IMG/VR virus record: IMGVR_UViG_3300045988_027578
DNA: 57,547 nt
Direction: 5' to 3' (one strand)
DNA from: a virus
The notes under the pieces were generated by a model. The model searched no databases. It was not told where the DNA came from and saw only the letters and a program-made list of their open reading frames with translations. Of the stretch, positions 4,491 through 34,385 are shown in pieces. The translations under genes were made by a program, and so were the position numbers. The stretch's first letter is position 1. Each line of letters opens with the position of its first letter.

Positions 4491-4854
4491 GAGAAAATCA
4501 ATATCTAAAAGTATAAGAACATCTGTATATCTCATGTATAACGGACATTGTGCTTATTGTGGCACAGAAATAGATTACAAAGATATGCAGGTAGACCATG
4601 CAACACCACTTAGGATAGGTGGAGCAGACGACATTTCAAATTACATGCCAGCTTGTAGGAGCTGCAATCACTATAAAGCCACTTTAGATGTCGAGGGATT
4701 TAGAAAGTATCTTTCAGAAATATATAAAAGGCTTATGCGTGACAGCATACCTTATCAAGTGGCGGAGCGGTTTGGAATCGTGAAACATGTGTCGAACGAT
4801 GTGAAATTCTATTTTGAAGAATTGAGAGGTGGAGAAAATGAAAGTAGTAATTGA
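4483..4854 (+). CDS. HNH endonuclease
   Basis: CAYCG...VDHATPL...N...CRSCNHYK, an HNH/zinc-finger signature. Confidence 0.8.
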   Translation: MNKRKSISKSIRTSVYLMYNGHCAYCGTEIDYKDMQVDHATPLRIGGADDISNYMPACRSCNHYKATLDVEGFRKYLSEIYKRLMRDSIPYQVAERFGIVKHVSNDVKFYFEELRGGENESSN

Positions 4855-5227: not shown

Positions 5228-5503
5228 ATGGAAAATACAGATGCTAGAGTGCTACTACAACATATTTACAATACTTATGGTTATCAAATATCAAAAAACT
5301 TTAAGGATAATGCCATTCGAGACGCTTTTGAATTAGCAGACAAGGCACTTGAAAAGCAGATACCTAAGAAACCCGATTTTACAGAAGATAAGGAGTTTGC
5401 TTTATGTCCTTGTTGTAATGGTAATGGATTAGCTGATAAGCAGGAATATTGTGATAATTGCGGTCAGAAATTAGACTGGTCAGAAGAAAGTGAGGAAAAG
5501 TAA
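5228..5503 (+). CDS. hypothetical zinc-ribbon protein
   Basis: CPCC...CDNCG; RBS TAGGAG. Confidence 0.55.
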   Translation: MENTDARVLLQHIYNTYGYQISKNFKDNAIRDAFELADKALEKQIPKKPDFTEDKEFALCPCCNGNGLADKQEYCDNCGQKLDWSEESEEK

Positions 5504-5934
5504 TGAACCGTGTAATTTTATGTGGAAGAGTTGTTAGAGAGCCAGAGATTAGATATTCGCAGACAGTAAACGGAAGTATGGCAGTAGCAAGATACACATT
5601 AGCTGTTGACAGAGCTTTTAAGAAAGAGGGCGAACAGGCAGCAGACTTTATTAATTGTATTGCATTTGGCAAGAATGGAGAGTTTGCAGAGAAATATTTG
5701 CACCAGGGAACTAAGATTATTGTTGAGGGCAGATGGCAGACAGGCAACTATACCAACAAAGACGGACAGAAAGTCTACACTAATGATTGTGTTGTTGAAA
5801 GACACGAATTTTGCGAAAGCCGTGCTAATCAACAGAACAATAATAACAATGGAATTATGGGCGGTAATGCTAGTTCAGACAGCTTTATGTCAATTCCAGA
5901 TGGTGTGGCTGACGAGGGATTACCATTTAATTAA
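5503..5934 (+). CDS. ssb: single-stranded DNA-binding protein
   Basis: OB-fold N-terminus MNRVILCGRVVREPEIRY, Gly/Asn linker, acidic tail DEGLPFN. Confidence 0.9.
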   Translation: MNRVILCGRVVREPEIRYSQTVNGSMAVARYTLAVDRAFKKEGEQAADFINCIAFGKNGEFAEKYLHQGTKIIVEGRWQTGNYTNKDGQKVYTNDCVVERHEFCESRANQQNNNNNGIMGGNASSDSFMSIPDGVADEGLPFN

Positions 5935-8008: not shown

Positions 8009-8959
<951 letters not shown>

Positions 8960-9040
8960 AAAGCAAATTGATATTGCAACAACTCTTATGGCGAGGGATT
9001 ATAAAGGTTTTGGGAATCAATCTATGAATGGAGTAATTGA

Positions 9041-9874
9041 ATGGAAGTATTAGGAAGCATATATACAGAAGTTTCAGACAGATTTCAAAAAGGCATTATC
9101 GGGGGTATTTCCCGGTGTGTAAAAGCTGAAAAACACGATTTAGGAGTTGTACTTATGGAACAAATAATCTTAGACGGTAGTCAAAGAGGTCTTGAAAATG
9201 GCAAGTGGAGAACATACACGGACATAATGCCCTCAATTACCGCAAGAGAATATAAGGAGCCGAGAAGTGTTATGGAGGTAATACAAATAGGTAACATAGC
9301 AGAGGAAAAGAATTTCAGTAATCCTCAAACTGGCAGAATTTATGATGTAGGGGGGTGCAGTCCGACATTGAGTACAATGCAAGGTGGCAATCAAGAGCCG
9401 AAAATTCTTGAAAGTCAAATAGTTGCTATGCGTGGCAGAAATCCTGATAATCCGTCAGATAGAACTGTGGGGAACCCAACAGAGCAGAGATTAGAAGTAA
9501 ATATGCAAGGTACAAGTAATTGCTTAACAAGTGTACAGAAAGATAATTTATTGCTTGAAAATAATATCCAAAAAGTCGGTCAAATATCAAGCAATGGTTC
9601 TCAATGCGGTACAGTTATTTCTGATAATGGCATATCTGCTAATCTTGTAGCTGGTACACACGGATATGCAAATAACCATATTGCTACACAATATCGTATC
9701 AGAAAGCTAACACCGAGAGAATGTGGCAGGCTTATGGGAGTATCAGACGAGGACATATCCAAAATGGCAGCAGTAAACAGTAACACGCAACTATACAAGC
9801 AGTTTGGAAACAGTATAGTTGTAGATGTTATGTGTGCTATGTTTAAGAATTTGAATATCAAGCAAGGAGATTAA
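9041..9874 (+). CDS. DNA (cytosine-5) methyltransferase, C-terminal (beta-like) part: several TRD-like modules plus motifs IX and X
   Basis: RKLTPRECGRLMG (IX), QFGNSIVV (X). Own RBS GGAG at 9030-9033, with TGA at 9038-9040 just upstream. Confidence 0.85.
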   Translation: MEVLGSIYTEVSDRFQKGIIGGISRCVKAEKHDLGVVLMEQIILDGSQRGLENGKWRTYTDIMPSITAREYKEPRSVMEVIQIGNIAEEKNFSNPQTGRIYDVGGCSPTLSTMQGGNQEPKILESQIVAMRGRNPDNPSDRTVGNPTEQRLEVNMQGTSNCLTSVQKDNLLLENNIQKVGQISSNGSQCGTVISDNGISANLVAGTHGYANNHIATQYRIRKLTPRECGRLMGVSDEDISKMAAVNSNTQLYKQFGNSIVVDVMCAMFKNLNIKQGD

Positions 9875-12836: not shown

Positions 12837-13049
12837 ATGAAATTTTCAGATTTTACAAAGCCAGAACTTGAAAAAATAATTGAAAATGCCAATTTTACCG
12901 AGGAAGAAGTGAGAATATTTATGCTTCTTTCTCGGAATTTTGCACAAAAGGAGATAGCGCACAGATTGTCAATGTCTACAAGAACGTTAGAAAGACGGGT
13001 GAGGAATATTAAGAATAAGATTGAGAGGGTGGTAAATGAGTGGAACTAA
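12837..13049 (+). CDS. sigma-70 region-4 / LuxR-type HTH protein
   Basis: FTEEEVRIFMLLSRNFAQKEIAHRLSMSTRTLERRVRNIKNKI; ATG 12837 after AGGAG. Confidence 0.6.
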   Translation: MKFSDFTKPELEKIIENANFTEEEVRIFMLLSRNFAQKEIAHRLSMSTRTLERRVRNIKNKIERVVNEWN

Positions 13050-14287
13050 CAGACAAGGAATTGTTGAATTATGTACTAGAGAATGGTATTATCTCTCGTG
13101 ACGATGTTCAAAAACAAATTGAAATGAACGAAAGGAAAAAATATTTAAAAGCACACAATAATGAAATCTGGCAAGGAAAGGATAAGAAGTGGTATACATA
13201 CTTGCCAGACGAAAGCACATCAAGCGGCAGAAAGCTGCTAAAGCGTTCAACGCAAGAGTCTCTTGAAGATGGAATTGTGGAACACTACAAGAAACTTGCT
13301 AATGAACCTTTAGTTAAGACTGTATTCAAGGAATGGGTAGACCAAAAACTTGAATATCATGAAATTAAGAAGCAATCATATGATAAGTATAATGATAACT
13401 TTGCCAGATTTTTCACTAATGAAGCATATCACATGGCAGATAAGAAAATCAAGTACATTACAGAAGATGACTTAGAATGCTTTATTAAGACTGTTATTGC
13501 CGAATGTAAGCTTACACATAAGGCATATTCTGATATGCGAATCCTTATTAATGGCATTTTTAAATATGCCAAGAAAAAGGGGTATACTAATCTAAGTATC
13601 ACACAATTTATGGGAGACTTGGATTTATCACGCAGAGCTTTTACTAAAAATGTGAAAAAGAAAGACGAACAGGTGTATTTTGAGGATGAAATTCCAAGAA
13701 TCACAGAATATCTATGGCAACGATATGATATAAGGAGCCTGGGATTATTACTTATGTTTGAGTGTGGAATGAGAGCTGGCGAGTTATCATCACTTAAGTT
13801 TTCTGATATTCACAACACTGTACTGAAAGATGGAACTATTAAGCATTATATTTCTATACAAAGAACAGAAATTAAGGTCAGAGATGAAAATGGGAAATGG
13901 GCTAAGATAGTAAGCGACTATCCTAAATCTGACGCAGGATTAAGAGATATAATTATTCCAGATAAAGCTGTAAATACTGTTAAGGCAATTCGCAGATTAA
14001 ATCCTTTTGGAACTTATATGTTTGAAGAAAAGGGAGAACGTATAAAAGAACAAGCATTTAACAGAAAGTTGCATAAGATATGCAGGGCACTAGACATTAA
14101 TTATCGTTCCACGCACAAAGTCCGCCGGGCATACAGTGTTGCATTGTATGATAATTGCGTGAGCGACACTGTTATAACAGAAATGATGGGGCATACAAGC
14201 ATTGAGACAACAAGAAAATATTACATTTACAGTAATAAGACTGATAGAACTAAGATTGAGCAAGTTAATAATGCTATCAATTATTAG
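13040..14287 (+). CDS. int: tyrosine recombinase / phage integrase
   Basis: Catalytic pattern ...GMRAGELSSLKFSDI...HKVRRAY...MGHTSIETTRKYY. Confidence 0.9.
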   Translation: MELTDKELLNYVLENGIISRDDVQKQIEMNERKKYLKAHNNEIWQGKDKKWYTYLPDESTSSGRKLLKRSTQESLEDGIVEHYKKLANEPLVKTVFKEWVDQKLEYHEIKKQSYDKYNDNFARFFTNEAYHMADKKIKYITEDDLECFIKTVIAECKLTHKAYSDMRILINGIFKYAKKKGYTNLSITQFMGDLDLSRRAFTKNVKKKDEQVYFEDEIPRITEYLWQRYDIRSLGLLLMFECGMRAGELSSLKFSDIHNTVLKDGTIKHYISIQRTEIKVRDENGKWAKIVSDYPKSDAGLRDIIIPDKAVNTVKAIRRLNPFGTYMFEEKGERIKEQAFNRKLHKICRALDINYRSTHKVRRAYSVALYDNCVSDTVITEMMGHTSIETTRKYYIYSNKTDRTKIEQVNNAINY

Positions 14288-14292
14288 GATTT

Positions 14293-14509
14293 TGATTACA
14301 AAGTAATCAAAGTAATCAAGGCACAAAGCCAGAAACCCAGTAATAGAGCGGAATAAGGGAGCAGTCAATGCAGTTCGATTCTCTCATCCCCTGCTATTTT
14401 TTCAAGGAGAAGAAACACTGCAAACCCGCATAAACACTGAATGAAAGGAGATTTTTTGAACATCGTCTTTTTGCAGGAAAATAAAGAGGTAATCAAGAAA
14501 GTAATCATA
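14293..14509. other. attP-like region: GTAATCA arm-type repeats flanking a tRNA-3'-end-like core
   Basis: GTAATCA at 14303, 14312, 14490, 14501, and inverted at 14293-14299. Core candidate GTTCGATTCTCTCATCCCCTGCTA at 14373-14396. Confidence 0.4.
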
Positions 14510-16935: not shown

Positions 16936-17550
16936 ATGCATAAATGGGCTAAACAGATTATGGAATGTGTCAAGGCTAAAGTTGACGGAATTGGAATTGA
17001 CAATTTTGAAGGACAAAACCTTGACGATTTAAAGGACTTTACAGAAATAGCGAAGAACATAGCTTGTTTTGACAAAGATTACAGAATTGTTGAAGCTATG
17101 GAAAAGTCAGAAGATAACGAAGACATTATGCGTATGCTTGAACAGTACGAAGATTATCCAGACAGAAGATACTACGACCACTACCGCTATGCAAATGGCA
17201 GATTTGCCCCAAAAGGCAAAGGAACATACCGCAGAGGATATGAAGAACCGCCTTATATGCACATGTACCCAGAAGCAGAGCATATGAGGGATATGGATAG
17301 GGATTATGGCAAGATGTACTATACAGAGCCAATGAACGAAAGCGGCTATGACAGAGCAAAGAGAAATTATACAGAAACTAAGGAAATGCACAAGAATAAC
17401 ACGCCAGAAGATAAGGAGCACAAGATGAAGTCACTTGACAGCTATACTAAGGAACTTGCAAGCGATATTACAGGTATGGTGGCTGATATGTCGGCAGAAG
17501 AGAAGAACTTGCTTAGAACAAAGTTAAGCACTCTTGTATCTAAGATATGA
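16936..17550 (+). CDS. Tyr/Arg/Asp/Met-rich protein
   Basis: RBS AGGGAGG; YEDYPDRRYYDHYRYANGRF...YRRGYEEPPYMHMYPE. Confidence 0.65.
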   Translation: MHKWAKQIMECVKAKVDGIGIDNFEGQNLDDLKDFTEIAKNIACFDKDYRIVEAMEKSEDNEDIMRMLEQYEDYPDRRYYDHYRYANGRFAPKGKGTYRRGYEEPPYMHMYPEAEHMRDMDRDYGKMYYTEPMNESGYDRAKRNYTETKEMHKNNTPEDKEHKMKSLDSYTKELASDITGMVADMSAEEKNLLRTKLSTLVSKI

Positions 17551-17557
17551 TTTTAAG

Positions 17558-17592
17558 GGCTATGAGTAGCAATATTCATAGCCTGTTTTATT
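17558..17592 (+). terminator. rho-independent terminator
   Basis: GGCTATG-12 nt-CATAGCC followed by TGTTTTATT. Confidence 0.7.
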
Positions 17593-17609
17593 CAGAAAGG
17601 AGCATACAG

Positions 17610-17933
17610 ATGATTTTTAGCATTAATGGCACAATGTGGCAAGTGCAATATAAAAATTCAAATTCGGGTGAATTAAAGCGGTCAGACGGCACAATCAGCT
17701 TAGGTGTAACTGATAGAAATACACACACAATTTATCTGTCAAATGCCTTGCGTGGATTCATGCAACGCAAAGTGCTTATACACGAAGTATGCCACGCAAT
17801 CTGTATGTCCTATGATGTGTATTTGCCGATTGAGCAGGAAGAAATATTGTGTGATTTTGTGGCAACTTATGGCGATGAAGTATTTGACATTGTTGATATG
17901 GTTTTAGGAGCAGTTAGGAGGATAGCAATATGA
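17610..17933 (+). CDS. HExxH metallopeptidase-like protein (ImmA/IrrE-like)
   Basis: ATG 17610 after AAAGGAG; VLIHEVCHAI motif. Confidence 0.45.
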   Translation: MIFSINGTMWQVQYKNSNSGELKRSDGTISLGVTDRNTHTIYLSNALRGFMQRKVLIHEVCHAICMSYDVYLPIEQEEILCDFVATYGDEVFDIVDMVLGAVRRIAI

Positions 17934-18473: not shown

Positions 18474-18977
18474 TCAATTATAATATTCGAAGCTGTTAAA
18501 AACATAGCTTTTCTTGTTTGTCTTCCAGTCTGTGAAGCTGTACAATATATAATTCGTGCAATCATCTTCCGGCAGCTTTTTAACATTGCTAAACATGGCA
18601 CATAATATATTGTGTGCAAGCTGTGCGCGTTCTTTCTCCGTTGTTTGCCATTCTTCCACAATCTGCACATTTTTAACAAGCGGTTCACCGTCGTTACCTG
18701 TGCTTATCTGCTTAGCTTCGATAATATAACATTTATCTTTTATTCTAGCACAAAAAGAGCGTAAAAGCTCAATAGAATCAAGAACTGGTACATTGTTTTT
18801 AAAACCAAAGCAAGAAACGCCTTTTTCATATGCGCATTCTGGCACACATTCCAACGCTTCGTTGTATCCATATACATCAAATGCATATGTAAAGTTGTCG
18901 TTCTGGTCGTTTGTCATTTTTAGAAAATTGATAGATTTTTCATTTTTGGGGATTTCGCCAAATCTTAAAAAATACAT
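18474..18977 (-). CDS. hypothetical protein (167 aa)
   Basis: Start trimmed to MYFLRFGEIP. TATAAT boxes and RBS AAAGGTGG lie just upstream on the minus strand. Confidence 0.65.
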   Translation of the reverse strand: MYFLRFGEIPKNEKSINFLKMTNDQNDNFTYAFDVYGYNEALECVPECAYEKGVSCFGFKNNVPVLDSIELLRSFCARIKDKCYIIEAKQISTGNDGEPLVKNVQIVEEWQTTEKERAQLAHNILCAMFSNVKKLPEDDCTNYILYSFTDWKTNKKSYVFNSFEYYN

Positions 18978-19033
18978 AAAATGCCACCTTTCAAATATTA
19001 TAATATTATACCATATTATTATTAATATGGGAA

Positions 19034-19075
19034 TGCTTGCAGCTGGAATCGAACCAACCAGAACCCACAGCAAGC
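19034..19075 (-). ncRNA. tRNA-like acceptor/T-arm minihelix 1
   Basis: Minus strand reads GCUUGCU-guggguucug-GUUGG-UUCGAUU-CCAGC-UGCAAGC-A. Confidence 0.5.
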
Positions 19076-19101
19076 AAAAAGGGCGCAGATTGTACGCCCT
19101 T
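19076..19101 (-). terminator. rho-independent terminator of 19112..19381
   Basis: Minus strand: AAGGGCG-9 nt-CGCCCTT followed by TTTTT. Confidence 0.75.
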
Positions 19102-19111
19102 AATCAAGTTA

Positions 19112-19381
19112 TTAATTGTTAAATTCATAAAATAGACCACTTTTATTATAACAAGTTGTAAGTCTTTTTAAGCCATAAAAAATATCATAGTTACAATCAA
19201 AAACAGCTTGCAGACCTGCGTATATAATTACGCTTCGCCCATTATCCCAGAAAGAAAAATCTGCTATTTTTTCAAGCTCCAAGATTTTAGCCACCTTTTT
19301 TCCATAGATAAATATAAATTTTTCTAAATTTCCGCGGATTTCTCCAGCTGTTAAAGTGTTTAATTTTTCGTATATTGTCAT
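19112..19381 (-). CDS. hypothetical protein (89 aa)
   Basis: Start trimmed to MTIYEKLN after GGAGG; the upstream part of the track ORF is a terminator hairpin. Confidence 0.6.
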   Translation of the reverse strand: MTIYEKLNTLTAGEIRGNLEKFIFIYGKKVAKILELEKIADFSFWDNGRSVIIYAGLQAVFDCNYDIFYGLKRLTTCYNKSGLFYEFNN

Positions 19382-19420
19382 ATCGCAGACCTCCATATTC
19401 TTAATATTATCCCTTACAGG

Positions 19421-19465
19421 AAAAACCGCCGCCGGCATCGGTCCGGCTGGCATCCTCTGCGGCGG
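19421..19465 (-). terminator. GC-rich rho-independent terminator
   Basis: Minus strand: CCGCCGC...GCGGCGG with an inner GCCGG/CCGGC stem, then TTTTT. Confidence 0.75.
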
Positions 19466-19639
19466 TTAATTTGCTTTTACTTCTGCTCTTAAAATCTCAA
19501 TAGCTTCTTGTGTTGTGTGTTCCCTGTACCATTTCCAAGGCTTCTTGTATGCCTTCGCAAGTGCAAAATCTTCGTGTTTTTCTGTCAAAATGCGTCTAAC
19601 TTCTAAAAATGCCTTTTTTGCTTCTTCTAATCTGTTCAT
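19466..19639 (-). CDS. small protein (57 aa, below the ORF-track cutoff)
   Basis: Hand-translated MNRLEEAKKAFLEVRRILTEKHEDFALAKAYKKPWKWYREHTTQEAIEILRAEVKAN; RBS AAAGGTAAAAAA. Confidence 0.5.
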   Translation of the reverse strand: MNRLEEAKKAFLEVRRILTEKHEDFALAKAYKKPWKWYREHTTQEAIEILRAEVKAN

Positions 19640-19677
19640 AATTTTTTACCTTTCTTTATTTATTCCCTTGTGGGTAA

Positions 19678-19719
19678 AAGCAAGCCGGGGAATCGAACCC
19701 CGGAAGTGCCAACCTTGCT
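19678..19719 (-). ncRNA. tRNA-like acceptor/T-arm minihelix 2
   Basis: Minus strand reads AGCAAG-guuggcacuu-CCGGGG-UUCGAUU-CCCCGG-CUUGCU-U, starting 1 nt after the stop of the upstream gene. Confidence 0.55.
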
Positions 19720-19720
19720 A

Positions 19721-19966
19721 TTATATTGCTTCTTTTTCTTTGCTAATTTCTGCCGCAATTATTCCCTGCTCAATAAAATATCGTAATGCACTATCGCCGA
19801 AGCGTTGTATATAATATTCTGCAAGCTCCGAAGTACTAAAAGTGTCTAATGCTGTGCCGACATCGCTATAAATACCGCTGTATGTTTTAGCTCTGTTTGC
19901 TAGTGCTTTATCAATAGGGCTTTTTGGCTCTTCCTCTTTAACTCCTACAAGCCTATCAGCTCGCAT
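19721..19966 (-). CDS. hypothetical protein; in frame with 20087..20419 across a single TAA
   Basis: No RBS before ATG 19966. The 120 nt upstream are open and in frame up to the TAA at 20087-20089. Confidence 0.5.
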   Translation of the reverse strand: MRADRLVGVKEEEPKSPIDKALANRAKTYSGIYSDVGTALDTFSTSELAEYYIQRFGDSALRYFIEQGIIAAEISKEKEAI

Positions 19967-20086
19967 TGTTCTAGCGTGTTCGTTTCCGCTTTCGTCGGAA
20001 ATAATAACGCATTTAACGCTTTTTCCGCTCTTTGTTGGCTCTACGCTTTTAATTGTGGAAGTGTAACCAAGGTGGAGCGTTTCGAC

Positions 20087-20419
20087 TTAATCATAATAAA
20101 AGCTATCTATAGCGGTTTGGGTGGTTCCTTTAACAACTATAGTCATCAAATGGCTAAAGCTATCAAGTGCTAATCCGTATGGCTCTAAGTCTTTGCTTAA
20201 TTTATAAATTCTCCTGTCACAGCTTTCGGAAAGTTCTTTTGTGCTTCTTCTGTTGCAAGTTTTTTCATCGTTTTCTAAATATGAAAGCCTGTCAAGGTCT
20301 GCGTTCAATCTGTAAAAGCGGTTCATTAAATGTTTTGCAATTTCATATTTGATGTTATAAGTCTCCGTTGCCATTCTCAACTCTTTTTCTCTCTTTTCTG
20401 CAATTGTTAATTTTCTCAT
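20087..20419 (-). CDS. hypothetical protein (110 aa), first gene of the leftward cassette
   Basis: ORF track. Its promoter lies in the operator region: minus-strand TTGACA at 20555-20550 and TAGTAT at 20532-20527. Confidence 0.6.
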   Translation of the reverse strand: MRKLTIAEKREKELRMATETYNIKYEIAKHLMNRFYRLNADLDRLSYLENDEKTCNRRSTKELSESCDRRIYKLSKDLEPYGLALDSFSHLMTIVVKGTTQTAIDSFYYD

Positions 20420-20514: not shown

Positions 20515-20531
20515 ATTTGTAACCTAATACT

Positions 20532-20571
20532 AACACCTTTTAAGGTGTATGTCAACACCTTTTAAGATGTT
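20532..20571. promoter_or_regulatory. two palindromic operators AACACCTTTTAAGGTGT and AACACCTTTTAAGATGTT
   Basis: The perfect inverted repeat ACACCTT/AAGGTGT lies in the spacer of the leftward promoter. A third copy is at 20882-20899. Confidence 0.6.
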
Positions 20572-20651: not shown

Positions 20652-20879
20652 ATGATTACATATAAAATAGATGTATTAAAAGAGCTGGCACAGCGTGGCT
20701 ACACCGCTAACAGAATGAGGAAAGAGAAGATATTAAGTGAAAGCACAATGCAGAATCTAAGAAACAGGAGTGACATTAATACAAAAACTTTAAATACATT
20801 ATGTATTATATTAAGATGCCAGCCAAACGACATTTTAGAGATAGTACCAACCAACGACGAAAAAATAAAATATTTTTAA
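20652..20879 (+). CDS. XRE/Cro-type HTH regulator
   Basis: Promoter TTGCAA-17-TATAAT at 20593-20621; RBS AAAGGAG; HTH ...LSESTMQNLRNRSDINTKTLNTLCIIL. Confidence 0.7.
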   Translation: MITYKIDVLKELAQRGYTANRMRKEKILSESTMQNLRNRSDINTKTLNTLCIILRCQPNDILEIVPTNDEKIKYF

Positions 20880-21603: not shown

Positions 21604-21675
21604 AATACAAAAACGTATATTTCAATACATCTAATGTTATTGTTTATAAATACAAAATAGCATATTTCAATACAT
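21604..21675 (+). repeat. two 27-bp direct repeats AATACAAAA-N4-ATATTTCAATACAT, 45 bp apart, upstream of terS
   Basis: 21604-21630 and 21649-21675, identical except for the 4-nt centre. Confidence 0.8.
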
Positions 21676-23912: not shown

Positions 23913-23996
23913 TCGTGTCAGTCAATGAAAGTATAATGGTTGCAAAGGATAGTACACTGCGACTTGTGGCGAATGCATACTGGGAATAGCCACTAT

Positions 23997-24068
23997 TGCC
24001 CTTTAGTATAATGGCTAATACACAGGATTTTGATTTCTGTAATATGGGTTCGATTCCCATAAGGGTAG
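23997..24068 (+). tRNA. tRNA-Gln (anticodon UUG)
   Basis: Hand-folded cloverleaf: acceptor TGCCCTT/AAGGGTA (U1-A72), D stem GTAT/ATAC, anticodon stem CAGGA/TTCTG, loop TTTTGAT, T arm ATGGG-TTCGATT-CCCAT. Confidence 0.85.
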
Positions 24069-24318
24069 TTTATTTTTCTTTTTATTCGTTTGGCTGTTCA
24101 TTATTGTGTTTTTGCATTTTACACAGAACAGTCCTCCTTTCATATACCTCTTTGGATTTTGTTCAGTTAAAAGCGGTGCAAGACCGCTTGAGAGGGTTTG
24201 GCGTGTATATACATAGCCATGTGAAAATCAGCTTATCAAGAAGCACTCCTTATCAAAACACCCCTAATATTTTATTGTTTCTGTTCTTGTTTCTTGATAG
24301 CCGTTATAGGCGGTATTT

Positions 24319-24405
24319 GCAGATATGGTGTAATGGTATCACAAGAGATTGCTAATCTCTCTAACGAGTAAAATCGTTATGCAGGTCCGATTCCTGCTAT
24401 CTGCG
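24319..24405 (+). tRNA. tRNA-Ser (anticodon GCU), class II with a long variable arm
   Basis: Acceptor GCAGATA/TATCTGC, anticodon stem AGAGA/TCTCT, loop TTGCTAA, variable arm AACGA/TCGTT, T arm GCAGG-TCCGATT-CCTGC. Confidence 0.85.
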
Positions 24406-24476
24406 CTAAAATCCTTTTTCAAGTCTGCGTGCGTAAGCTGGTAGCAGACTAATACTAGTTAGAATAGGGTTTTGGT

Positions 24477-24607
24477 TCTGACAACATAGTGTGAGATAGG
24501 TTCAATTCCTATTACAGTCGGTGTACCCTTGGAGATGCGGTTCTTCGAGGTGTGAGGTTCGATTCCTTAACTGGGTGGTGAGTATGGTGCAAGTCCATAT
24601 GTCAGAT
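24477..24607 (+). ncRNA. non-canonical 131-nt tRNA-like RNA
   Basis: Perfect 7-bp closing stem TCTGACA/TGTCAGA next to T arm TATGG-TGCAAGT-CCATA. It encloses two further T-arm hairpins (TTCAATT, TTCGATT loops) and a 7-bp hairpin. Confidence 0.35.
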
Positions 24608-24634
24608 TAACAGCAAACTAGGTTAGCTACCGAA

Positions 24635-24663
24635 AAGCAGACCACGACTGCTTGTTTGTTGTT
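24635..24663 (+). terminator. rho-independent terminator ending the tRNA cluster
   Basis: AAGCAG-accacga-CTGCTT followed by GTTTGTTGTT. Confidence 0.65.
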
Positions 24664-24706
24664 ATATCTAAAATCGTGGAAATTATCATTCGTGGAGGTA
24701 AATAAA

Positions 24707-28408: not shown

Positions 28409-28509
28409 AACGATATTACCGGCTACAGATTGATTGTAGTCGCTACCCTAAAACAGTTATAGGCAGAGGTCTATAAGCACCTTTGCTGAAAAGTGGAGGT
28501 GCTTTTCTT

Positions 28510-30234
28510 ATGGCTAGTCAGAGCCTTATTTCTACAGTTAATGGATATGAAAATTACATAAAGAAAAATGGAATTGATGAACAGGTAATCAATGCCTATG
28601 TAGACGCTTGCAGTGTAGCCATAAACGGCGAGAAAGATATTGAGTATGGACTACAACTTACAGAAAGGACAAAAGAGCTTATAGAGCGTTTCTGCAAGGA
28701 TAAGACAGGTGGAACGATATGGGATTTAGAGAAGTATGCGTTTGCAAATAAAACGGAATATGAGCTGATTAATTGGTTTTACGATATTTTACTGATTGAA
28801 GCGCAAAACAAGGTTGTTGACAGTTTTTTTAGATACATAGAAAAGAAACGTGAACCTAAAGAAAGATTCTATATGCCAAGAAGAAAACAGTTTATCAAAA
28901 TAGGCTTAATAGAAGCATTACAAGGCATGATTGATGATAAATATGATATTTTATGTATTTCTCTCCCACCCGGAACAGGAAAAACCACAATCGAAAAGTT
29001 TTTCCATTCTGCGGTTATAGGTTGGTACTCAAACGGATATAACCTCTTTTATTCACACAGCGGAGACATTACACGAATGTACTATGATGGCGTATATGAT
29101 ATTGTCACAAACGCTGACGAGTATACATGGGGAGAAGTGTTCCCTGGACTTGAAGTAACAAGCACAAATGCAAAGCTTGAACAGTTTAACGTAGGAAAAT
29201 ATAAGCCGTTTCAATCTGTACAATGTACATCTGTCGGCAGTAAAAATGCCGGTAAAGTCAGAGCCAATAAATTTCTGCTAGTTGATGATATGATAGGCGG
29301 CATTGAAGAAGCACTTAACCCAACTTATCTTGATAAATTGTGGGATAAATATGCAGTAGATGCACGACAAAGAAAGATACCAGACGAGGATGGAAACCCA
29401 TGTAAAGAAATACATATTGCTACAAGGTGGAGCGTTAGAGACGTAATAGGACGTATTATACAAGCTTATGAGGGAAACAAACGAGTTAAAGTAATATCCG
29501 TGCCTGATGTAGACCCAGTAACAGGAGAAAGTAATTTTGACTTTGAATTTGGTGGCTATACAGTAAAGGATTTTGAAGATATTCAGCTACTTATGGATGA
29601 AATCTCATATCGCTGCCTGTATAAACAAGACCCTATAGAACGTGAGGGCTTATTATTCCCAGACGATAAAATCCGAAGATACCTCAATTTGCCACACGGA
29701 GAGCCAGAAATTATCACAGCTCAATGCGACACAAAAGGAAAAGGTACAGATTATTTTGTACTGCCTGTATTGCAAAAATACGGAGAAGATTATTACTGCG
29801 TTGATTGTGTGTGCGACAACACAGCAGATTATGAAGAACAATACAGAAATGCTGCAGGTGTACTTGTAAATAACAAAGTGCAAGAGTGCGAATTTGAGCG
29901 TAATGCCGGTGGCGACAGGGTTGCAATGGAGGTTAATAAGCGTGTAGAGAGTGTAGGTTGGATATGTAATATTACAGACACGCCGACTGAAACAAACAAA
30001 GAGGCAAGGATTTTTCAATGCTCTAACTGGATTTTGCAACACATTATTTTTAAAGACGCATCACTTTACAAACCTAATGAACCATATGGAGTAATGATGT
30101 CGCTTTTAAAACAGTATTCAGTATCAGGGAAGAAACAGCTTGATGATGTTCCAGATGTATTTTCAAATTTTGCATTGAGGATGACAAAAGGAAATCGAGT
30201 TAAAAAAACAGTCATTATGTCAAGCCCAATATAG
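28510..30234 (+). CDS. terL: terminase large subunit
   Basis: Walker A SLPPGTGKTT and Walker B-like LLVDDMIGG, plus a C-terminal nuclease-type acidic residue pattern. Lies next to the portal module. Confidence 0.85.
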   Translation: MASQSLISTVNGYENYIKKNGIDEQVINAYVDACSVAINGEKDIEYGLQLTERTKELIERFCKDKTGGTIWDLEKYAFANKTEYELINWFYDILLIEAQNKVVDSFFRYIEKKREPKERFYMPRRKQFIKIGLIEALQGMIDDKYDILCISLPPGTGKTTIEKFFHSAVIGWYSNGYNLFYSHSGDITRMYYDGVYDIVTNADEYTWGEVFPGLEVTSTNAKLEQFNVGKYKPFQSVQCTSVGSKNAGKVRANKFLLVDDMIGGIEEALNPTYLDKLWDKYAVDARQRKIPDEDGNPCKEIHIATRWSVRDVIGRIIQAYEGNKRVKVISVPDVDPVTGESNFDFEFGGYTVKDFEDIQLLMDEISYRCLYKQDPIEREGLLFPDDKIRRYLNLPHGEPEIITAQCDTKGKGTDYFVLPVLQKYGEDYYCVDCVCDNTADYEEQYRNAAGVLVNNKVQECEFERNAGGDRVAMEVNKRVESVGWICNITDTPTETNKEARIFQCSNWILQHIIFKDASLYKPNEPYGVMMSLLKQYSVSGKKQLDDVPDVFSNFALRMTKGNRVKKTVIMSSPI

Positions 30235-31035: not shown

Positions 31036-32628
31036 ATGCAGACAGGAAGAATTGCTATTTATACAGGTGCAAAAGAAATAACACCTGACAATATAATACC
31101 AATTTTGCGTGAAGCAATTTTGGAGCATGATATTAATTCCAACAGAATACAGTTTCTTCTTGATTATGATGCAGGAATACAACCAATAGTTAGGAAGAAT
31201 CCAAAGACTTACAGACCGGACATTGACTGTGAGTGCTGCGACAATGTGGCTAACGAAGTCACAGAGTTTAATTTAGGTTTTAAGTGGGGAAATCCTATAA
31301 CGCTAGTTCAAAATAGCGACAATGAGGATTCTAACCTCACAGAAGCTATAGCGGAATTAAACAGTTGCTACGAATCACAAAACGCAAGGCAGAAGCAGCA
31401 GGAACTTGCAAGATATGTTGAAATCGGCGGCGTTGGATATGTCCTTATTGATGTAAATACAGAATATGAAGATGGGGAAAGCTATTTTACATATGATGTA
31501 TTAGATCCAAGAACAACATTTGTTGTAAGGTCAACAGCTTATAGCGATAAGAGGGTTATTCTTGCAGGTACTTATATCAAAGACAAACACAGCGGTACAA
31601 GATATTACACTTGTTTTACAAAAGATATTCGCTATGAAGTTACGGATGGAATAAAAATTACTAACGGACCAGAAAAAGGAAAAACAAAATGGGGATTTTT
31701 AGAGAGAAGTGGAGAAGAGAATCCATTACATAAAATTCCTATTATTGAATATACAAGGTCATTTGATAGAATGGGCTGTTTTGAACGGCAAATATCTGAA
31801 ATGGATAACTTAAACCTACTTATTTCAGATTTTACAAATGATGTTGAACAGAATACGCAGGCGGTATGGCATACGAATGATGTTGATTTCCCAGTTGAAC
31901 AGGAAACAACAGTTGATAAAGATGGAACACCGCACATCACTAAAAAAGTAAGGAAACCAAAATCCGGAGAATGGATGCAGACCTATACATCAGCAGATGG
32001 CAAAACTCCAATAGTTGAGCCACTTGCAATCAATTATGATTACACAGGTATGCTTAACAATATCCAATCAAGGCGACAGATAATCTTGCAGAAATGTAAT
32101 GTGCCACAACGAAATGATAATAGCGGTGGCAGTACAGGAGTTGCAATGTCAGATGCAACAGGTTGGTCACAGGCTGAAACAGCGGCGGCAAAACAGCAAT
32201 TAATTACTGATGGCTGCAAAATGGAAGAGATAAAAGTTGTTCTTGCAGCTATCAAACTGTCAAACAATGTTGCCAGCAGTAACCCATTACTTAAATTAAG
32301 GTCAAGAGATGTAAAACCTAACATTAAGCGACAAAAAACTTATGAAATGTCAACCAAGGTTAATGCCATGGCAACATTGATAAGTCACGGATTTAGCCTT
32401 AAAGATACAGTTGATGCAATTCCATTCTTTGATGACCCTAACGATGTTGTAGCAAGAAGTGGAGAAATGGTTAAGGCATATCAAGACAGTATAATCAACA
32501 AAGATACACAGAATCAAGCAGAGGGCGGAGATGGAGAACAACCACCTAATAAAGACCGCACAATGCAAGACTTATCAGACCAGACAGAAAATAGTCCGGT
32601 TATAGATAAGAGCAGAACAGATAAATAA
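31036..32628 (+). CDS. portal protein (SPP1 gp6-like)
   Basis: 530 aa, positioned between terL and the scaffold/capsid genes, with an acidic C-terminal tail. Confidence 0.8.
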   Translation: MQTGRIAIYTGAKEITPDNIIPILREAILEHDINSNRIQFLLDYDAGIQPIVRKNPKTYRPDIDCECCDNVANEVTEFNLGFKWGNPITLVQNSDNEDSNLTEAIAELNSCYESQNARQKQQELARYVEIGGVGYVLIDVNTEYEDGESYFTYDVLDPRTTFVVRSTAYSDKRVILAGTYIKDKHSGTRYYTCFTKDIRYEVTDGIKITNGPEKGKTKWGFLERSGEENPLHKIPIIEYTRSFDRMGCFERQISEMDNLNLLISDFTNDVEQNTQAVWHTNDVDFPVEQETTVDKDGTPHITKKVRKPKSGEWMQTYTSADGKTPIVEPLAINYDYTGMLNNIQSRRQIILQKCNVPQRNDNSGGSTGVAMSDATGWSQAETAAAKQQLITDGCKMEEIKVVLAAIKLSNNVASSNPLLKLRSRDVKPNIKRQKTYEMSTKVNAMATLISHGFSLKDTVDAIPFFDDPNDVVARSGEMVKAYQDSIINKDTQNQAEGGDGEQPPNKDRTMQDLSDQTENSPVIDKSRTDK

Positions 32629-33353: not shown

Positions 33354-34385
33354 ATGCCACAGACTAAGTTAGCAAATTTAGTAGATCCACAGGTAATGGC
33401 TGATATGGTATCAGCTAAGTTGCCAAAGAAGATTAAGTTCTCGCCTATCGCAAGAGTTGATACAACACTTGTAGGCAGACCGGGAAGCACAATTGTTGTG
33501 CCAAAGTATGCTTATATTGGTGACGCAGAAGATGTAGCAGAAGGTGTTGCTATGGGTACAACAGTACTTACAACATCTACAACAGAAGCAAAGGTTAAGA
33601 AAGCAGGTAAGGCTGTAGAGCTTACAGATGAATCAGTATTATCTGGTTATGGCGACCCACTTGGTACAGCTATCAACCAGATTGCTATGTCAATCGCTGC
33701 AAAGGTAGATAATGACAGCTATGACGCACTTTGCACAGCACCTATTGATTACGATGGAACAGCAGCACCTATCAGCTATTCAGCAGTTGTAGCGGCTAAT
33801 AGCAAGTTTGATGATGAATCAGATTCATCACTTACAAAGATACTGTTCATTAATCCGGCACAGGAAGCCACATTGCTTAATGACGATGATTTTAAGAGCA
33901 ACGATAAGTACCCACTTAATGTGATTATGAACGGCACTATCGGCTCTATTGCAGGAGCGCAGGTTGTTAAGTCTAAGAAAGTTAAGCTGGTTAAGTATGA
34001 ACTTGATGATTCAACAGGAACAATCAATGTTGTAGCTGATACAACAAGCGAGGATGCAACGAATGTTCACCTTGACACAGCACTTGCACACACGCTTAAG
34101 CAAAAGGATAAAGAAATCAAGGTAGGTAGCAAGTTAAAGGCTGTTACAACAGAGTTCTATGCTTGTCCTATTGTTATCGTATCAGCAGAAGACCCTAACG
34201 AGGACACAGGTGCAGATGGCGTGTCAGAGGAAGAGAACGCACTTACAATCTATATGAAGAGAAGCGTTGAGATTGAATCGGACAGAGACATTCTTGCAAA
34301 GACAACTGTTATCTCTGGCGATGAACACTATACAGCTGTTCTTAGCAATGATTCTAAGGTTGTTCTTGCTAAGTTTGGAAAGTAA
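33354..34385 (+). CDS. major capsid protein (N4-gp56/HK97-fold type)
   Basis: MPQTKLANLVDPQVMADMVSAKLPKKIKFSP...VPKYAYIGDAEDVAEG is typical of this capsid family. Confidence 0.85.
   Translation: MPQTKLANLVDPQVMADMVSAKLPKKIKFSPIARVDTTLVGRPGSTIVVPKYAYIGDAEDVAEGVAMGTTVLTTSTTEAKVKKAGKAVELTDESVLSGYGDPLGTAINQIAMSIAAKVDNDSYDALCTAPIDYDGTAAPISYSAVVAANSKFDDESDSSLTKILFINPAQEATLLNDDDFKSNDKYPLNVIMNGTIGSIAGAQVVKSKKVKLVKYELDDSTGTINVVADTTSEDATNVHLDTALAHTLKQKDKEIKVGSKLKAVTTEFYACPIVIVSAEDPNEDTGADGVSEEENALTIYMKRSVEIESDRDILAKTTVISGDEHYTAVLSNDSKVVLAKFGK

What the first reader, a model, noticed from the sequence alone, without database searches (positions are those of the whole stretch)
19034..19719. Two tRNA acceptor/T-arm minihelices (no D or anticodon arm) placed between leftward cassette genes
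On the minus strand:
- 19075->19034 reads GCUUGC(U)-guggguucug-GUUGG-UUCGAUU-CCAGC-(U)GCAAGC-A.
- 19719->19678 reads AGCAAG-guuggcacuu-CCGGGG-UUCGAUU-CCCCGG-CUUGCU-U.

Both elements share the same architecture:
- a canonical T-loop
- a 5-6 bp T-stem stacked directly on a 6-bp acceptor-like stem, giving the 12-bp tRNA minihelix geometry
- exactly 10 unpaired nt where the D and anticodon arms would be

Each one occupies an intercistronic gap. One starts 1 nt after the stop of 19721..19966 and precedes the RBS of 19466..19639. The other follows the terminator of 19112..19381 and precedes the -10 box and RBS of 18474..18977.

Two independent copies with the same architecture argue for function rather than random tRNA debris. 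Possible roles:
- RNase P/Z or CCA-adding-enzyme processing punctuation
- transcript stabilisers
- decoys for tRNA-directed host defences
- att-like landing pads for gene cassettes
Basis: partly seen in the sequence, partly recalled or inferred. Interest (0 to 1): 0.65.

Follow-up and report, generated by a model that had tools for sequence, protein, structure and literature searches.

The report
tRNA top-half mimics between phage genes
Two 41-base elements that copy only the acceptor stem and T-arm of a tRNA sit between small accessory genes of a temperate gut-bacterium phage, belong to a conserved family in at least 119 related viral contigs, and most likely serve as cutting marks for the host's tRNA-processing enzymes.

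Summary
Window 19719→19679 and 19075→19035 (minus strand) each fold as a 6-bp acceptor-like stem stacked on a 6-bp T-stem with T-loop UUCGAUU and a 10-nt linker, with no D or anticodon arm.

They are not chance. The strict architecture occurs 2 times in the window against 0.04 expected, and 188 times in relatives against about 1.3 expected.

They belong to a family of at least 8 stem-sequence types in ~57-kb temperate Lachnospiraceae phages. All 12 pairs are kept (98% of cells paired), and 10 pairs change on both sides. The T-loop and the 12-bp stack are constant, while the linker varies from 8 to 19 nt.

Elements lie 0–12 nt after a stop codon or directly after a terminator. They are co-oriented with local genes and have U-rich trailers without CCA. 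A hairpin typically starts 3–4 nt downstream.

They are not att scars. The real attP, a tRNA-Trp 3' end, is at 14373–14394, and no real tRNA carries either element's 3' half.

The best model, which is inferred and not shown, is RNase P / RNase Z punctuation of accessory-gene transcripts, as with plant-mitochondrial t-elements.

What is shown directly is that hybrid elements (A5'/B3', A5'/G3') record cassette deletions with the crossover in the shared T-loop core.

The parts
19679..19719 (-). Element 2 (family type A) minihelix: 6-bp acceptor-like stem AGCAAG/CTTGCT, 10-nt linker GTTGGCACTT, 6-bp T-stem CCGGGG/CCCCGG, T-loop TTCGATT. Discriminator T is at 19678 and the trailer is TTA.
   Evidence: Sequence. 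Canonical fold is the MFE at -16.4 kcal/mol, 61% of the ensemble. CM R1 gives 49.5 bits, but the model was built partly from this sequence. Identical stems occur in at least 119 IMG/VR contigs with varying flanks.
19035..19075 (-). Element 1 (family type B) minihelix: GCTTGC/GCAAGC acceptor-like stem, linker TGTGGGTTCT, T-stem GGTTGG/CCAGCT (two G·U pairs), T-loop TTCGATT. Discriminator A is at 19034.
   Evidence: Sequence. CM R1 gives 45.2 bits. Relatives carry C instead of T at 19041. The canonical fold is only 5.5% of the ensemble in the window copy.
19665..19674 (-). Small hairpin CCC-ACAA-GGG starting 4 nt after element 2 (the discriminator is the first of those 4), followed by an A-rich spacer and the RBS AAAGG of ORF 19466-19639.
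   Evidence: Sequence. Relatives have covarying hairpins at the same offset (ACCCGGATAACTGGG, GTCCTATAAGGGA, ACCTCATAAGAGG and others). The offset is 3-4 nt in 71 of 103 contexts that have a hairpin.
19011..19030 (-). Hairpin CCATATTA-ATAA-TAATATGG starting 4 nt after element 1. Its 3' arm runs into the TG-extended -10 promoter.
   Evidence: Sequence; hairpin search found stem 8, offset 4; promoter scan.
19079..19101 (-). Intrinsic-terminator-like hairpin (AAGGGCGTACAATCTGCGCCCTT + TTT) ending 3 nt before element 1. Terminator plus type B element is a conserved unit in relatives.
19005..19033 (-). Promoter-like site (TTCCCA-17-TATAAT with TG) for ORF 18474-18977, beginning immediately after element 1's discriminator.
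20527..20555 (-). Leftward promoter-like site (TTGACA-17-TAGTAT with TG), divergent from the Cro-like gene (20652-20879). It probably drives the operon 20419→19466 that contains element 2.
19431..19447 (-). Terminator-like hairpin between ORF 19466-19639 and ORF 19112-19381. In relatives the same downstream 5'-UTR hairpin module is instead preceded by a type A minihelix, so junction types are interchangeable.
18474..20419 (-). Leftward array of five small accessory ORFs (20087-20419, 19721-19966, 19466-19639, 19112-19381, 18474-18977) punctuated by the two elements. None matches any known family.

Best explanation
The two elements are cis-acting RNA mimics of the top half of a tRNA (acceptor stem coaxially stacked on the T-arm, 12 bp, with a canonical T-loop). 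They are embedded in the transcripts of a hypervariable, leftward accessory-gene array of a temperate Lachnospiraceae phage.

**Proposed mechanism (inferred, not shown).**
- The host's shape-reading tRNA-maturation enzymes recognise the 12-bp stack and T-loop elbow, which a conserved GG in the linker probably helps to form.
- RNase P cuts at the 5' edge, 0-12 nt after the upstream stop codon or just after an upstream terminator hairpin.
- RNase Z cuts after the discriminator in the U-rich, CCA-less trailer.
- This splits polycistronic or read-through transcripts into independent units.
- The upstream piece ends near its stop codon or terminator hairpin.
- The downstream piece begins 3-4 nt before a small hairpin that would protect its new 5' end, followed by its RBS.
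- A 41-42 nt minihelix is released.

**Shown.** The architecture, family-wide covariation, the constant 12-bp length, orientation with transcription, position relative to ORFs, terminators and hairpins, and absence from real tRNAs and from the att site.

**Secondary consequence, also shown.** Because all types share the 11-bp core GGTTCGATTCC, elements in direct orientation occasionally recombine and delete the cassette between them.
For: **Not chance.**
- The architecture occurs 188 times in 1.16 Mb of window plus relatives, against about 1.3 in shuffles.

**Structure under selection.**
- At least 8 types have unrelated stem sequences but identical geometry.
- 98.0% of 348 cells are paired, against 58.6% shuffled and 33-51% slid. 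Ten of 12 pairs change on both sides. The two loop-proximal G-C pairs are invariant, as in tRNAs.
- The CM-aligned set of 64 distinct rows gives the same picture: 97.6% against 67.8%.
- Copies sampled by flanking anchors only show mostly pair-preserving changes in the stems and free substitutions and indels in the linker.

**RNA level rather than DNA level.**
- In those anchor-sampled copies, G·U outnumbers A·C by 57 to 17, pointing to the sense strand.
- Elements follow the local direction of transcription, including type D on the other genome strand.

**Fit to processing enzymes.**
- Stems vary in sequence but not in shape, which fits enzymes that read shape (RNase P, RNase Z, CCA-adding enzyme). 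It does not fit sequence-specific binders.
- N(-1) is U in 61% of contexts. The discriminator is U or A. The trailer is UUA, UAC or UUC and never CCA, like the phage's own tRNA-Gln trailer TTTA.
- A hairpin starts 3-4 nt after the element in 71 of 103 contexts that have one.
- GG occurs in 66 of 81 unique linkers against 46 expected, mostly at linker nt 4-5.

**Precedent.** Plant-mitochondrial t-elements, found with the same GGTTCRANYCC motif, are cut by RNase P and RNase Z to make mRNA ends (PMC1920247).
Against: - There are no RNA data. Cleavage, CCA addition and accumulation of the minihelix are all untested.
- Types B and C, including element 1, sit between a terminator and a promoter, so only read-through RNA would contain them. 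That makes a processing role less obviously useful there.
- Position +1/72 is mostly A-U, U-A or G·U rather than the G-C usual for RNase P substrates, and in several types N(-1) could pair with the discriminator.
- Within type A the stems are nearly invariant rather than covarying. This could also reflect sequence-level constraint or homogenisation by recombination.
- Unfoldable hybrids and decayed copies persist in several lineages, so an intact element is dispensable at some junctions.
- The types were first found by a scan that required pairing, and alignment A2 was built by hand with N padding.
Confidence: 0.5

Rival explanations
1. The primary function is at the DNA level. The elements are recombination modules that mark cassette borders. 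The shared core GGTTCGATTCC, flanked by inverted T-stem arms, serves as a crossover site for homologous, single-strand-annealing (the phage encodes RecT) or integrase-type recombination, driving gain, loss and shuffling of accessory genes.
For: - Both flanks of the invariant type A element are mosaic, with breaks exactly at its borders.
- Hybrids A5'/B3' (5 instances) and A5'/G3' (1 instance) have the crossover inside the T-loop core and carry the 3' partner's downstream flank.
- The same gene follows different element types in different phages (note).
- The phage's own integrase recombines at a tRNA-Trp T-loop that shares GTTCGATTC with the elements.
- RecT is encoded at 689-1453.
- Within type A the stems are invariant in sequence.
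Against: - A double-stranded recombination site does not need a 5' acceptor strand, a constant 12-bp stack, compensatory changes in the acceptor stem, or an excess of G·U over A·C on the transcribed strand.
- Only deletion hybrids are seen. There are no reciprocal B5'/A3' products, no insertions, and no hybrids with attP or tRNA-Trp.
- Stem sequences differ between types, so one sequence-specific recombinase could not bind them all.
- A relative with a different integration module (L248, inserted in a sigma-factor gene) keeps the elements.
Confidence: 0.17
2. The released minihelix itself is the functional product. It would be a small stable tRNA-top-half RNA, probably CCA-tailed, that titrates or diverts a host or prophage factor recognising acceptor/T-arm shape or the CCA end. 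Candidates are nucleotidyltransferase-type or acceptor-end-directed toxins, and tRNA-processing or tRNA-modification enzymes.
For: - The shape evidence is the same as for the best explanation.
- Minihelices are known minimal substrates for CCA-adding enzyme, RNase P, RNase Z and EF-Tu (established knowledge).
- The elements lie in an operon probably expressed from the prophage, next to the immunity region.
- Several copies per genome would raise the dose.
Against: - The elements have no promoter of their own. They are embedded in mRNAs or sit behind terminators.
- The eight types have different stems and discriminators, which argues against mimicry of one particular tRNA.
- There is no anticodon, so the elements cannot decoy anticodon nucleases.
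- No tRNA-directed enzyme or defence gene was found among the ORFs scanned.
Confidence: 0.12
3. The elements are unusual intrinsic terminators or attenuators whose GC-rich hairpin happens to look like a T-arm.
For: - The simple scan flags element 2's T-arm plus CTTGCTTTTA as terminator-like.
- Types not preceded by a terminator (A, E, F, G) mostly have TTT trailers, while types that follow a terminator (B, C) do not.
Against: - A terminator needs neither the conserved loop sequence TTCGAWT, nor an acceptor stem 10-19 nt away, nor a fixed 12-bp stack.
- The U-tract is short, interrupted, or absent in many type A contexts (CTAC, CTCG, AAAA).
- Element 1 already has a proper terminator 3 nt upstream.
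Confidence: 0.07
4. The elements are neutral relics: internally deleted tRNA genes, or tRNA 3' fragments left by integration events (att scars).
For: - tRNA-gene fragments are common by-products of integration (PMC9897764).
- Decayed copies and T-arm-only remnants exist.
- The phage does integrate into a tRNA gene.
Against: - The true attP is elsewhere, at 14373-14394, with a different sequence.
- Scars carry only the 3' part of a tRNA, whereas these have a matching 5' acceptor strand.
- Element 2's 3' half is absent from real tRNAs in 185,579 genomes, and element 1's from 69 metagenome hits.
- No co-resident phage tRNA shares a 3' half; at least 6 of 25 positions differ.
- Eight independent relics with the same precise 6+6 architecture, conserved while their flanks turn over, are not plausible as neutral debris.
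Confidence: 0.04

Closest known systems
t-elements of plant mitochondria (and the analogous t-elements of Haloferax)
   Same: - tRNA-like structures that keep the acceptor stem and the T-arm with the GGTTCRANYCC motif.
- Located at mRNA borders.
- Cut by RNase P at the 5' edge and RNase Z at the 3' edge to create mRNA ends.
- The released element can carry non-templated C/CCA (PMC1920247).
   Different: - Those are in organelles or archaea. They are usually degenerate cloverleaves derived from tRNA genes and occur as single loci.
- Here a double-stranded-DNA phage carries a multi-type family reduced to exactly 12 bp plus a linker, repeated between accessory-gene cassettes.
- Processing is not demonstrated here.
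mascRNA / MEN-beta tRNA-like elements of MALAT1 and NEAT1 (Rfam RF01684)
   Same: A tRNA-like fold inside a longer transcript is cleaved by RNase P and RNase Z and is CCA-tailed. Element 2 gives a weak sub-threshold match to this family (18.7 bits, E = 5).
   Different: Those are eukaryotic nuclear lncRNAs with a cloverleaf-like fold including an anticodon-like arm. There is no homology, and the Rfam score is far below the gathering threshold (42.5 bits).
Synthetic tRNA minihelices (acceptor stem + T-arm model substrates)
   Same: The anatomy is the same: a 12-bp coaxial stack with a T-loop. From established knowledge, this is the minimal substrate of RNase P, RNase Z, CCA-adding enzyme and EF-Tu.
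   Different: Laboratory minihelices join the two strands directly. These natural elements keep an 8-19 nt linker with a conserved GG and shift the junction to 6+6 instead of 7+5.
RNase P-matured phage regulatory RNAs (C4 RNA of P1/P7, CI RNA of P4) and T4 tRNA-cluster small RNAs
   Same: Phage transcripts matured by host RNase P through tRNA-like features (recalled from my own knowledge, not checked here).
   Different: Those are single regulatory RNAs with their own function. They are not a repeated family of minimal tRNA halves between protein-coding cassettes.
PeSL mobile regulatory cassettes of T4-type phages and integron attC sites
   Same: Short conserved or structured repeats between small co-oriented accessory genes in a hyperplastic region, marking recombination breakpoints. 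Hybrid elements here record deletions between repeats.
   Different: - PeSLs are promoter plus stem-loop units.
- attC sites are bound as folded single strands by a dedicated integron integrase next to attI.
- Here there is no dedicated recombinase, crossovers lie in the hairpin loop, and the elements mimic tRNA.
tRNA-gene fragments at attL/attR and attP cores
   Same: They contain a T-arm and an acceptor 3' strand. This phage really has one, at 14373-14394.
   Different: att cores are identical to the host tRNA, lack the 5' acceptor strand and lie next to the integrase gene. Elements 1 and 2 fail all three tests.

Membership tests
Canonical tRNA gene | Cloverleaf with D-arm and anticodon arm; detected by tRNA finders | tested here: not met
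   Only 10 nt lie between the acceptor 5' strand and the T-stem. ARAGORN and Rfam tRNA RF00005 call only tRNA-Gln and tRNA-Ser in the window.
Canonical tRNA gene | T-arm with loop TTCRANY and G53-C61; acceptor stem stacked on it (12 bp) | tested here: met
   T-loop is TTCGATT. The two loop-proximal G-C pairs are invariant across the family. The 12 pairs are kept in 98% of cells.
tRNA-like processing elements (t-element / mascRNA kind) | Acceptor-like stem plus T-arm with the GGTTCRANYCC motif, embedded in a longer transcript at a gene border | tested here: met
   The motif is present. Elements lie 0-12 nt after stop codons or terminators, 30-45 nt before the next start codon, and are co-oriented with the genes.
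tRNA-like processing elements (t-element / mascRNA kind) | Endonucleolytic cleavage by RNase P (5' edge) and RNase Z (after the discriminator); CCA addition to the released RNA | not testable with these tools
   No RNA-end or expression data are available. Only compatible sequence features were seen: U at -1, a U-rich trailer without CCA, and a downstream hairpin.
att site / tRNA-gene fragment left by integration | Sequence identity with the 3' end of a host tRNA gene | tested here: not met
   Element 2's 3' half occurs 4 times in 185,579 genomes, always in minihelix context. Element 1's 3' half has 69 metagenome hits, none in a tRNA.
att site / tRNA-gene fragment left by integration | Adjacent to the integrase gene; only the 3' part of the tRNA present | tested here: not met
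   The integrase is at 13040-14287. The real attP core at 14373-14394 equals the tRNA-Trp 3' end. The elements lie about 5 kb away and carry a matching 5' acceptor strand.
Intrinsic terminator | GC-rich hairpin immediately followed by a U-tract | tested here: inconclusive
   Element 2 is flagged by the simple scan and element 1 is not. Trailers across the family are often not U-tracts.
Integron-like cassette recombination site (attC kind) | Structured repeat at each cassette border, recombined by a dedicated adjacent integrase, with insertion as well as excision products | tested here: not met
   There is no integron-type integrase or attI next to the array. Only deletion hybrids are seen, with no reciprocal or insertion products and no hybrids with att.
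Any curated Rfam family | Score at or above the family's gathering threshold | tested here: not met
   There are no gathering-level hits at either element. The best sub-threshold hits are mascRNA-menRNA at 18.7 bits and a wrong-strand plastid ycf2 5'-UTR hit.

The most novel reading that the evidence does not exclude
A widespread lineage of temperate gut phages uses a modular 'punctuation and shuffling' system built from minimal tRNA top halves.
- Each accessory-gene cassette is delimited by a minihelix that the host's RNase P, RNase Z and CCA-adding enzyme excise.
- This makes every cassette an autonomous mRNA and releases CCA-tailed 41-nt tRNA halves.
- Those halves accumulate as small RNAs and act in trans, for example as sponges for toxins or enzymes directed at the acceptor end or CCA.
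- At the DNA level, the universal T-loop core lets cassettes be lost and exchanged between co-infecting phages.
Probability: 0.12. Interest if true: 0.9.

Novelty: new variant of a known kind. Interest (0 to 1): 0.68.

Why it matters
If the elements are cut by RNase P and RNase Z, this would be the first case known to me of tRNA-style punctuation of protein-coding transcripts in a bacteriophage. That mechanism is textbook for mitochondria and known for a few eukaryotic lncRNAs. Here it would use the smallest tRNA mimic that the processing enzymes accept.

It would explain how a hypervariable array of prophage accessory genes, the usual home of defence and counter-defence functions, can be expressed as independent units whatever lies next to them.

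It would give annotators a simple signature for cassette borders in gut phages: a 12-bp stack plus TTCGAWT, with no anticodon arm.

The deletion hybrids also give a concrete, datable mechanism for cassette turnover.

The family is abundant in human-gut viromes.

Tried and rejected
- **Exact search for element 1 in IMG/VR.** It found nothing. The window has a private T at 19041; relatives carry C and were recovered by architecture scan, anchors and a Y-containing pattern.
- **MAFFT on raw elements.** It could not keep the 5' strands in register because linker length varies. This was solved by N-padding or trimming linkers, which makes those alignments hand-guided.
- **CM E-values for the window's two elements.** They are circular, since the model includes them. 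Significance rests on shuffles instead.
- **Boundary at window ~14591.** I first read this homology boundary with large bacterial contigs as the prophage end. It is a mosaic junction or a different integration module. The real attP was then found at 14373-14394.
- **Extra T-loop matches at 24499 and 24556.** They are T-arm-only hairpins, not family members. One shares 16 nt with the tRNA-Tyr of relatives.
- **Deposited phage genomes.** There are no relatives of the region beyond short patches and no match to the element.
- **Cassette proteins.** There are no hits in Pfam, PHROGs, PADLOC or NCBIfam.
- **Literature.** I found no description of such phage elements. The supplement of PMC10690425 is not held.
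- **Integrase-mediated capture idea.** It is rejected for lack of minihelix × att hybrids and reciprocal products.
- **Derivation from co-resident phage tRNAs.** Rejected.
Full report
**1. The observation**

On the minus strand, 19719→19679 reads AGCAAG GTTGGCACTT CCGGGG TTCGATT CCCCGG CTTGCT. Likewise 19075→19035 reads GCTTGC TGTGGGTTCT GGTTGG TTCGATT CCAGCT GCAAGC.

- Each is a 6-bp acceptor-like stem and a 6-bp T-stem forming one continuous 12-nt 3' strand. Each has a canonical T-loop and a 10-nt linker where the D and anticodon arms would be.
- ARAGORN finds only tRNA-Gln (23996-24069) and tRNA-Ser (24319-24406) in the window. Rfam adds only an int-alpA RNA at 24611-24675.
- GGTTCGATTCC with up to 1 mismatch occurs 7 times against 0.23 expected.
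- The full architecture occurs twice against 0.04 in 200 dinucleotide shuffles.
- Element 2's canonical fold is its MFE structure (-16.4 kcal/mol, 61% of the ensemble).
- Element 1's canonical fold is only 5.5% of the ensemble, because of a private C→T at 19041. Relatives with C reach 55-94%.
  - Element 2 begins 1 nt after the stop of ORF 19721-19966 and precedes the RBS of ORF 19466-19639.
  - Element 1 lies between a terminator-like hairpin (19101→19079) and a TG-extended -10 promoter (19033→19005).

**2. The genome**

The window is a temperate siphovirus-like phage.

| Feature | Coordinates |
|---|---|
| RecT | 689-1453 |
| SSB | 5503-5934 |
| DNA methyltransferases | 8009-9874 |
| Tyrosine integrase | 13040-14287 |
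| ImmA-like peptidase | 17547-17933 |
| Cro/CI-type HTH protein | 20652-20879 |
| Large terminase | 28483-30234 |
| Portal | 31036-32628 |
| Major head protein | 33354-34385 |
| Endolysin | 48535-49815 |

- The two elements lie in a leftward array of five small ORFs (18474-20419).
- A promoter-like site at 20555-20527, divergent from the Cro-like gene, probably drives the leftward operon 20419→19466; the remaining ORFs lie behind terminator-like sites, and ORF 18474-18977 has its own promoter-like site.
- None of the five proteins matches Pfam, PHROGs, PADLOC or NCBIfam.
- Deposited phage genomes contain no close relative and no copy of the element.
- The hosts are Lachnospiraceae or Clostridium sp. 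CAG:510-like bacteria.

**3. A family, not two oddities**

- Element 2, with its stems fixed and its linker left free, is present in at least 119 IMG/VR contigs, mostly ~57 kb.
- In these contigs the 10-nt linker varies, with 41 variants.
- Both flanks change completely, right up to the element's borders. There are at least 8 different upstream gene ends and many different downstream genes.
- Scanning these loci for the architecture revealed at least 8 types with unrelated stems and linkers of 8-19 nt. All have T-loop TTCGAWT.

| Type | Stem signature | Note |
|---|---|---|
| A | AGCAAG…CCGGGG | element 2 |
| B | GCTTGC…GGYTGG | element 1 |
| C | TCGCGT…TTCCGG | |
| D | AGCGGT…ACAGGG | |
| E | GGCAAT…CCGGGG | |
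| F | AGTGAC…GGGCGG | |
| G | TCCGTT…GCAGGG | |
| H | AGAGTA…ATCCGG | |

- The strict pattern occurs 188 times in 1.16 Mb against about 1.3 in shuffles.
- A covariance model built from representatives finds exactly two full hits in the window.
- The same model finds 156 hits in 1.04 Mb of relatives.
- It finds only 4 weak hits (23.4 bits or less) in 866 kb of unrelated phage DNA.
- Many genomes carry 2-3 elements, 300-700 bp apart, each between small ORFs.

**4. Structure is under selection**

- On a register-controlled alignment of 29 sequences, 98.0% of cells pair. Column shuffles give 58.6% and slid partners give 33-51%.
- Ten of 12 pairs show changes on both sides, and the two loop-proximal G-C pairs never change type.
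- The model-aligned set of 64 distinct rows gives 97.6% against 67.8%.
- The types were discovered by a scan that required pairing, so I resampled types B, C and D using flanking anchors only.
  - Stems show mostly pair-preserving changes: GCTGG↔GTTGG, GCCGCT/GTCGCT/ACCGCT, CCGGG→TCGGG.
  - The linker takes substitutions and indels freely.
  - A minority of copies are decayed.
- In these anchored sets G·U outnumbers A·C by 57 to 17. The cells are not independent, so this is supportive only. It indicates that the selected structure forms on the sense strand.
- Type D lies on the opposite genome strand from type A but is co-oriented with its own local gene array.
- A GG is present in 66 of 81 distinct linkers against 46 expected, usually at linker positions 4-5. 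This is compatible with a D-loop-like contact to the T-loop.
- The total stack is always 12 bp. From established knowledge, and as reviewed in PMC4919913 (seen only by its title and abstract), 12 bp is the distance RNase P measures.

**5. Not att scars and not decayed local tRNAs**

- The 23-nt 3' half of element 2 occurs 4 times in 185,579 reference genomes. All four are in the same minihelix context and none is in a tRNA.
- The 21-nt 3' half of element 1 has 69 metagenome hits, and none is in a tRNA.
- No tRNA among 119 distinct ones in relatives shares a 3' half with any type; at least 6 of 25 positions differ.
- The real attachment site was found 86 nt after the integrase stop. GTTCGATTCTCTCATCCCCTGC (about 14373-14394) is identical to the 3' end of a complete tRNA-Trp(CCA).
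  - That tRNA is seen joined to phage DNA in L019, L070, L079, L113, L281, L315 and L336.
  - It is seen intact in L323 and L339.
- The integrase therefore crosses over at a tRNA T-loop.
- The att core is only ever preceded by attP flanks or by tRNA-Trp, never by a minihelix half.
- L248's prophage is inserted in a sigma-factor gene, identified from the GLIKAIDNF…FSTYAVP motif (my reading). It uses another integration module yet keeps types A and B.

**6. Anatomy around the elements**

- N(-1) is U in 61% of distinct contexts.
- The discriminator is U (57%) or A (29%).
- Positions 74-76 are UUA, UAC or UUC and never CCA, like the trailer of the phage's own tRNA-Gln.
- A hairpin starts 3-4 nt after the element in 71 of the 103 contexts that have one, and its stem covaries between contexts.
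- Types A, E, F and G follow a stop codon and precede hairpin, A-rich spacer, GGAGG and ATG.
- Types B and C directly follow an intrinsic terminator and precede a hairpin and a promoter.
- Junction types are interchangeable.
  - The 5'-UTR hairpin module that follows a plain terminator at 19447-19431 in the window follows a type A element in several relatives.
  - One gene follows type A in some phages and type G in another.

**7. Recombination through the T-loop core (shown)**

- Sampling by the type B 3' half alone uncovered hybrids of the form AGCAAG-linker-CCGG|GGTTCGATTCC|AGCC-GCAAGC followed by type B's downstream flank. These occur with at least two upstream-gene variants.
- One A5'/G3' hybrid was found in L306.
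- The census is A5'+A3' 161, A5'+B3' 5 and A5'+G3' 1. B5' halves are followed only by B-type 3' halves (93 instances, including two single-base variants). No reciprocal products were found.
- The hybrids cannot fold (+16.5 kcal/mol for the canonical pairing).
- They are what a deletion between two directly repeated elements, with the crossover in the shared 11-bp core, would leave.
- Whether replication slippage, RecT-type annealing or an integrase causes them cannot be told from the sequence.

**8. Interpretation**

- The best-supported reading is a cis-acting RNA mimic of the tRNA top half, used as a processing or punctuation signal by RNase P and RNase Z. Four features support it:
  - shape conserved while sequence is free;
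  - a constant 12-bp ruler length and a conserved T-loop;
  - sense-strand G·U pairs and orientation with transcription;
  - tRNA-like leaders and trailers, with a hairpin placed to cap the new downstream 5' end.
- The closest described systems are plant-mitochondrial t-elements, which were found with the same motif and shown to direct RNase P/Z cleavage (PMC1920247). mascRNA-type elements are the next closest.
- The cleavage itself is inferred, not shown.
- Four points weaken the model:
  - types B and C sit between a terminator and a promoter;
  - the 1-72 pairs are unusual for RNase P substrates;
  - type A is invariant in sequence rather than covarying;
  - broken hybrids survive in several lineages.
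- The DNA-level recombination role is real as an effect. As the primary function it does not explain the acceptor-stem covariation.

**9. Novelty**

- Literature searches found no description of such elements in phages.
- A large catalogue of predicted structured RNAs in IMG/VR mentions generic 'tRNA-like' candidates. It also mentions a highly expressed 86-nt RNA in Lachnospiraceae phages, without further detail (PMC10690425).
- Looser analogues exist in other phages.
  - L148 has a perfect minihelix directly before an RBS.
  - L222 has three tandem intercistronic tRNA-like elements with a shared acceptor stem, GG linker and T-arm, and a variable central hairpin.
- I rate this a new variant of a known kind: tRNA-like processing elements, here in a phage and reduced to the minimal top half.

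Noticed in passing
window 14373-14394 (+): This is the phage's real attP core, GTTCGATTCTCTCATCCCCTGC, 86 nt after the integrase stop. It is identical to the 3' end (T-loop to end) of a complete tRNA-Trp(CCA) seen at prophage junctions and as intact host copies in related loci. Several different attP left arms share this core, so several phage types use the same tRNA-Trp site.
   Followed up: yes
window 24474-24576 (+), between tRNA-Ser and the int-alpA RNA: Two T-arm-only hairpins (ATAGG TTCAATT CCTAT at 24494-24510 and TGAGG TTCGATT CCTTA at 24551-24567) are neither tRNAs nor family members. The homologous region in L072 has compensatory T-stem changes, and the first hairpin shares 16 nt with the tRNA-Tyr of relatives. 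They may be decayed tRNA genes or part of a larger tRNA-like RNA.
   Followed up: partly
window 24611-24675 (+): Rfam int-alpA RNA (RF02996) scores 37.2 bits, just above its gathering score of 35.8. It lies directly downstream of the tRNA cluster and upstream of ORF 24708 onward.
   Followed up: no
loci L001-L123 (relatives), e.g. L099: ARAGORN 'tRNA-Stop(tta)' and 3 'tRNA-SeC(tca)' genes in relatives, besides Gln, Ser, Tyr, Ile, Asn, Glu, Trp and Met. These are possible suppressor tRNAs in this phage lineage. None is in the window.
   Followed up: no
L222 (oriented reverse strand) around 728-1920; L148 around 4663-4710: Other phages also carry intercistronic tRNA-like elements. L222 has three tandem copies with an identical 7-bp acceptor stem (ACACCAG/CTGGTGT), a linker AATTGGTYT and a T-arm, but different 10-bp central hairpins, each before a T-run and RBS. 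L148 has a perfect minihelix, CGGAAG-9 nt-CGTAGG TTCGAAT CCTACA CTTCCG, directly before an RBS.
   Followed up: partly
L248 (reverse strand ~349-600): A relative is integrated inside a sigma-factor gene (translation …GLIKAIDNFNMDYDVKFSTYAVPI then phage DNA), reminiscent of skin-type elements that interrupt sporulation sigma genes. It uses a different integration module from the window's tRNA-Trp integrase.
   Followed up: partly
L102 ~1288; seven loci incl. L067, L011, L054, L109 (after the type B terminator): Decayed family members exist. L102 keeps only the 5' strand and part of the linker of type C. A diverged type B variant has loop TTTAATT and stems held largely by G·U pairs.
   Followed up: partly
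window 21619-21648 (+): There is a weak, sub-threshold Rfam match to a CRISPR direct-repeat family (CRISPR-DR3, 31.1 bits against a gathering score of 41, E = 0.75) in an AT-rich intergenic stretch. It is a single copy and probably chance.
   Followed up: no
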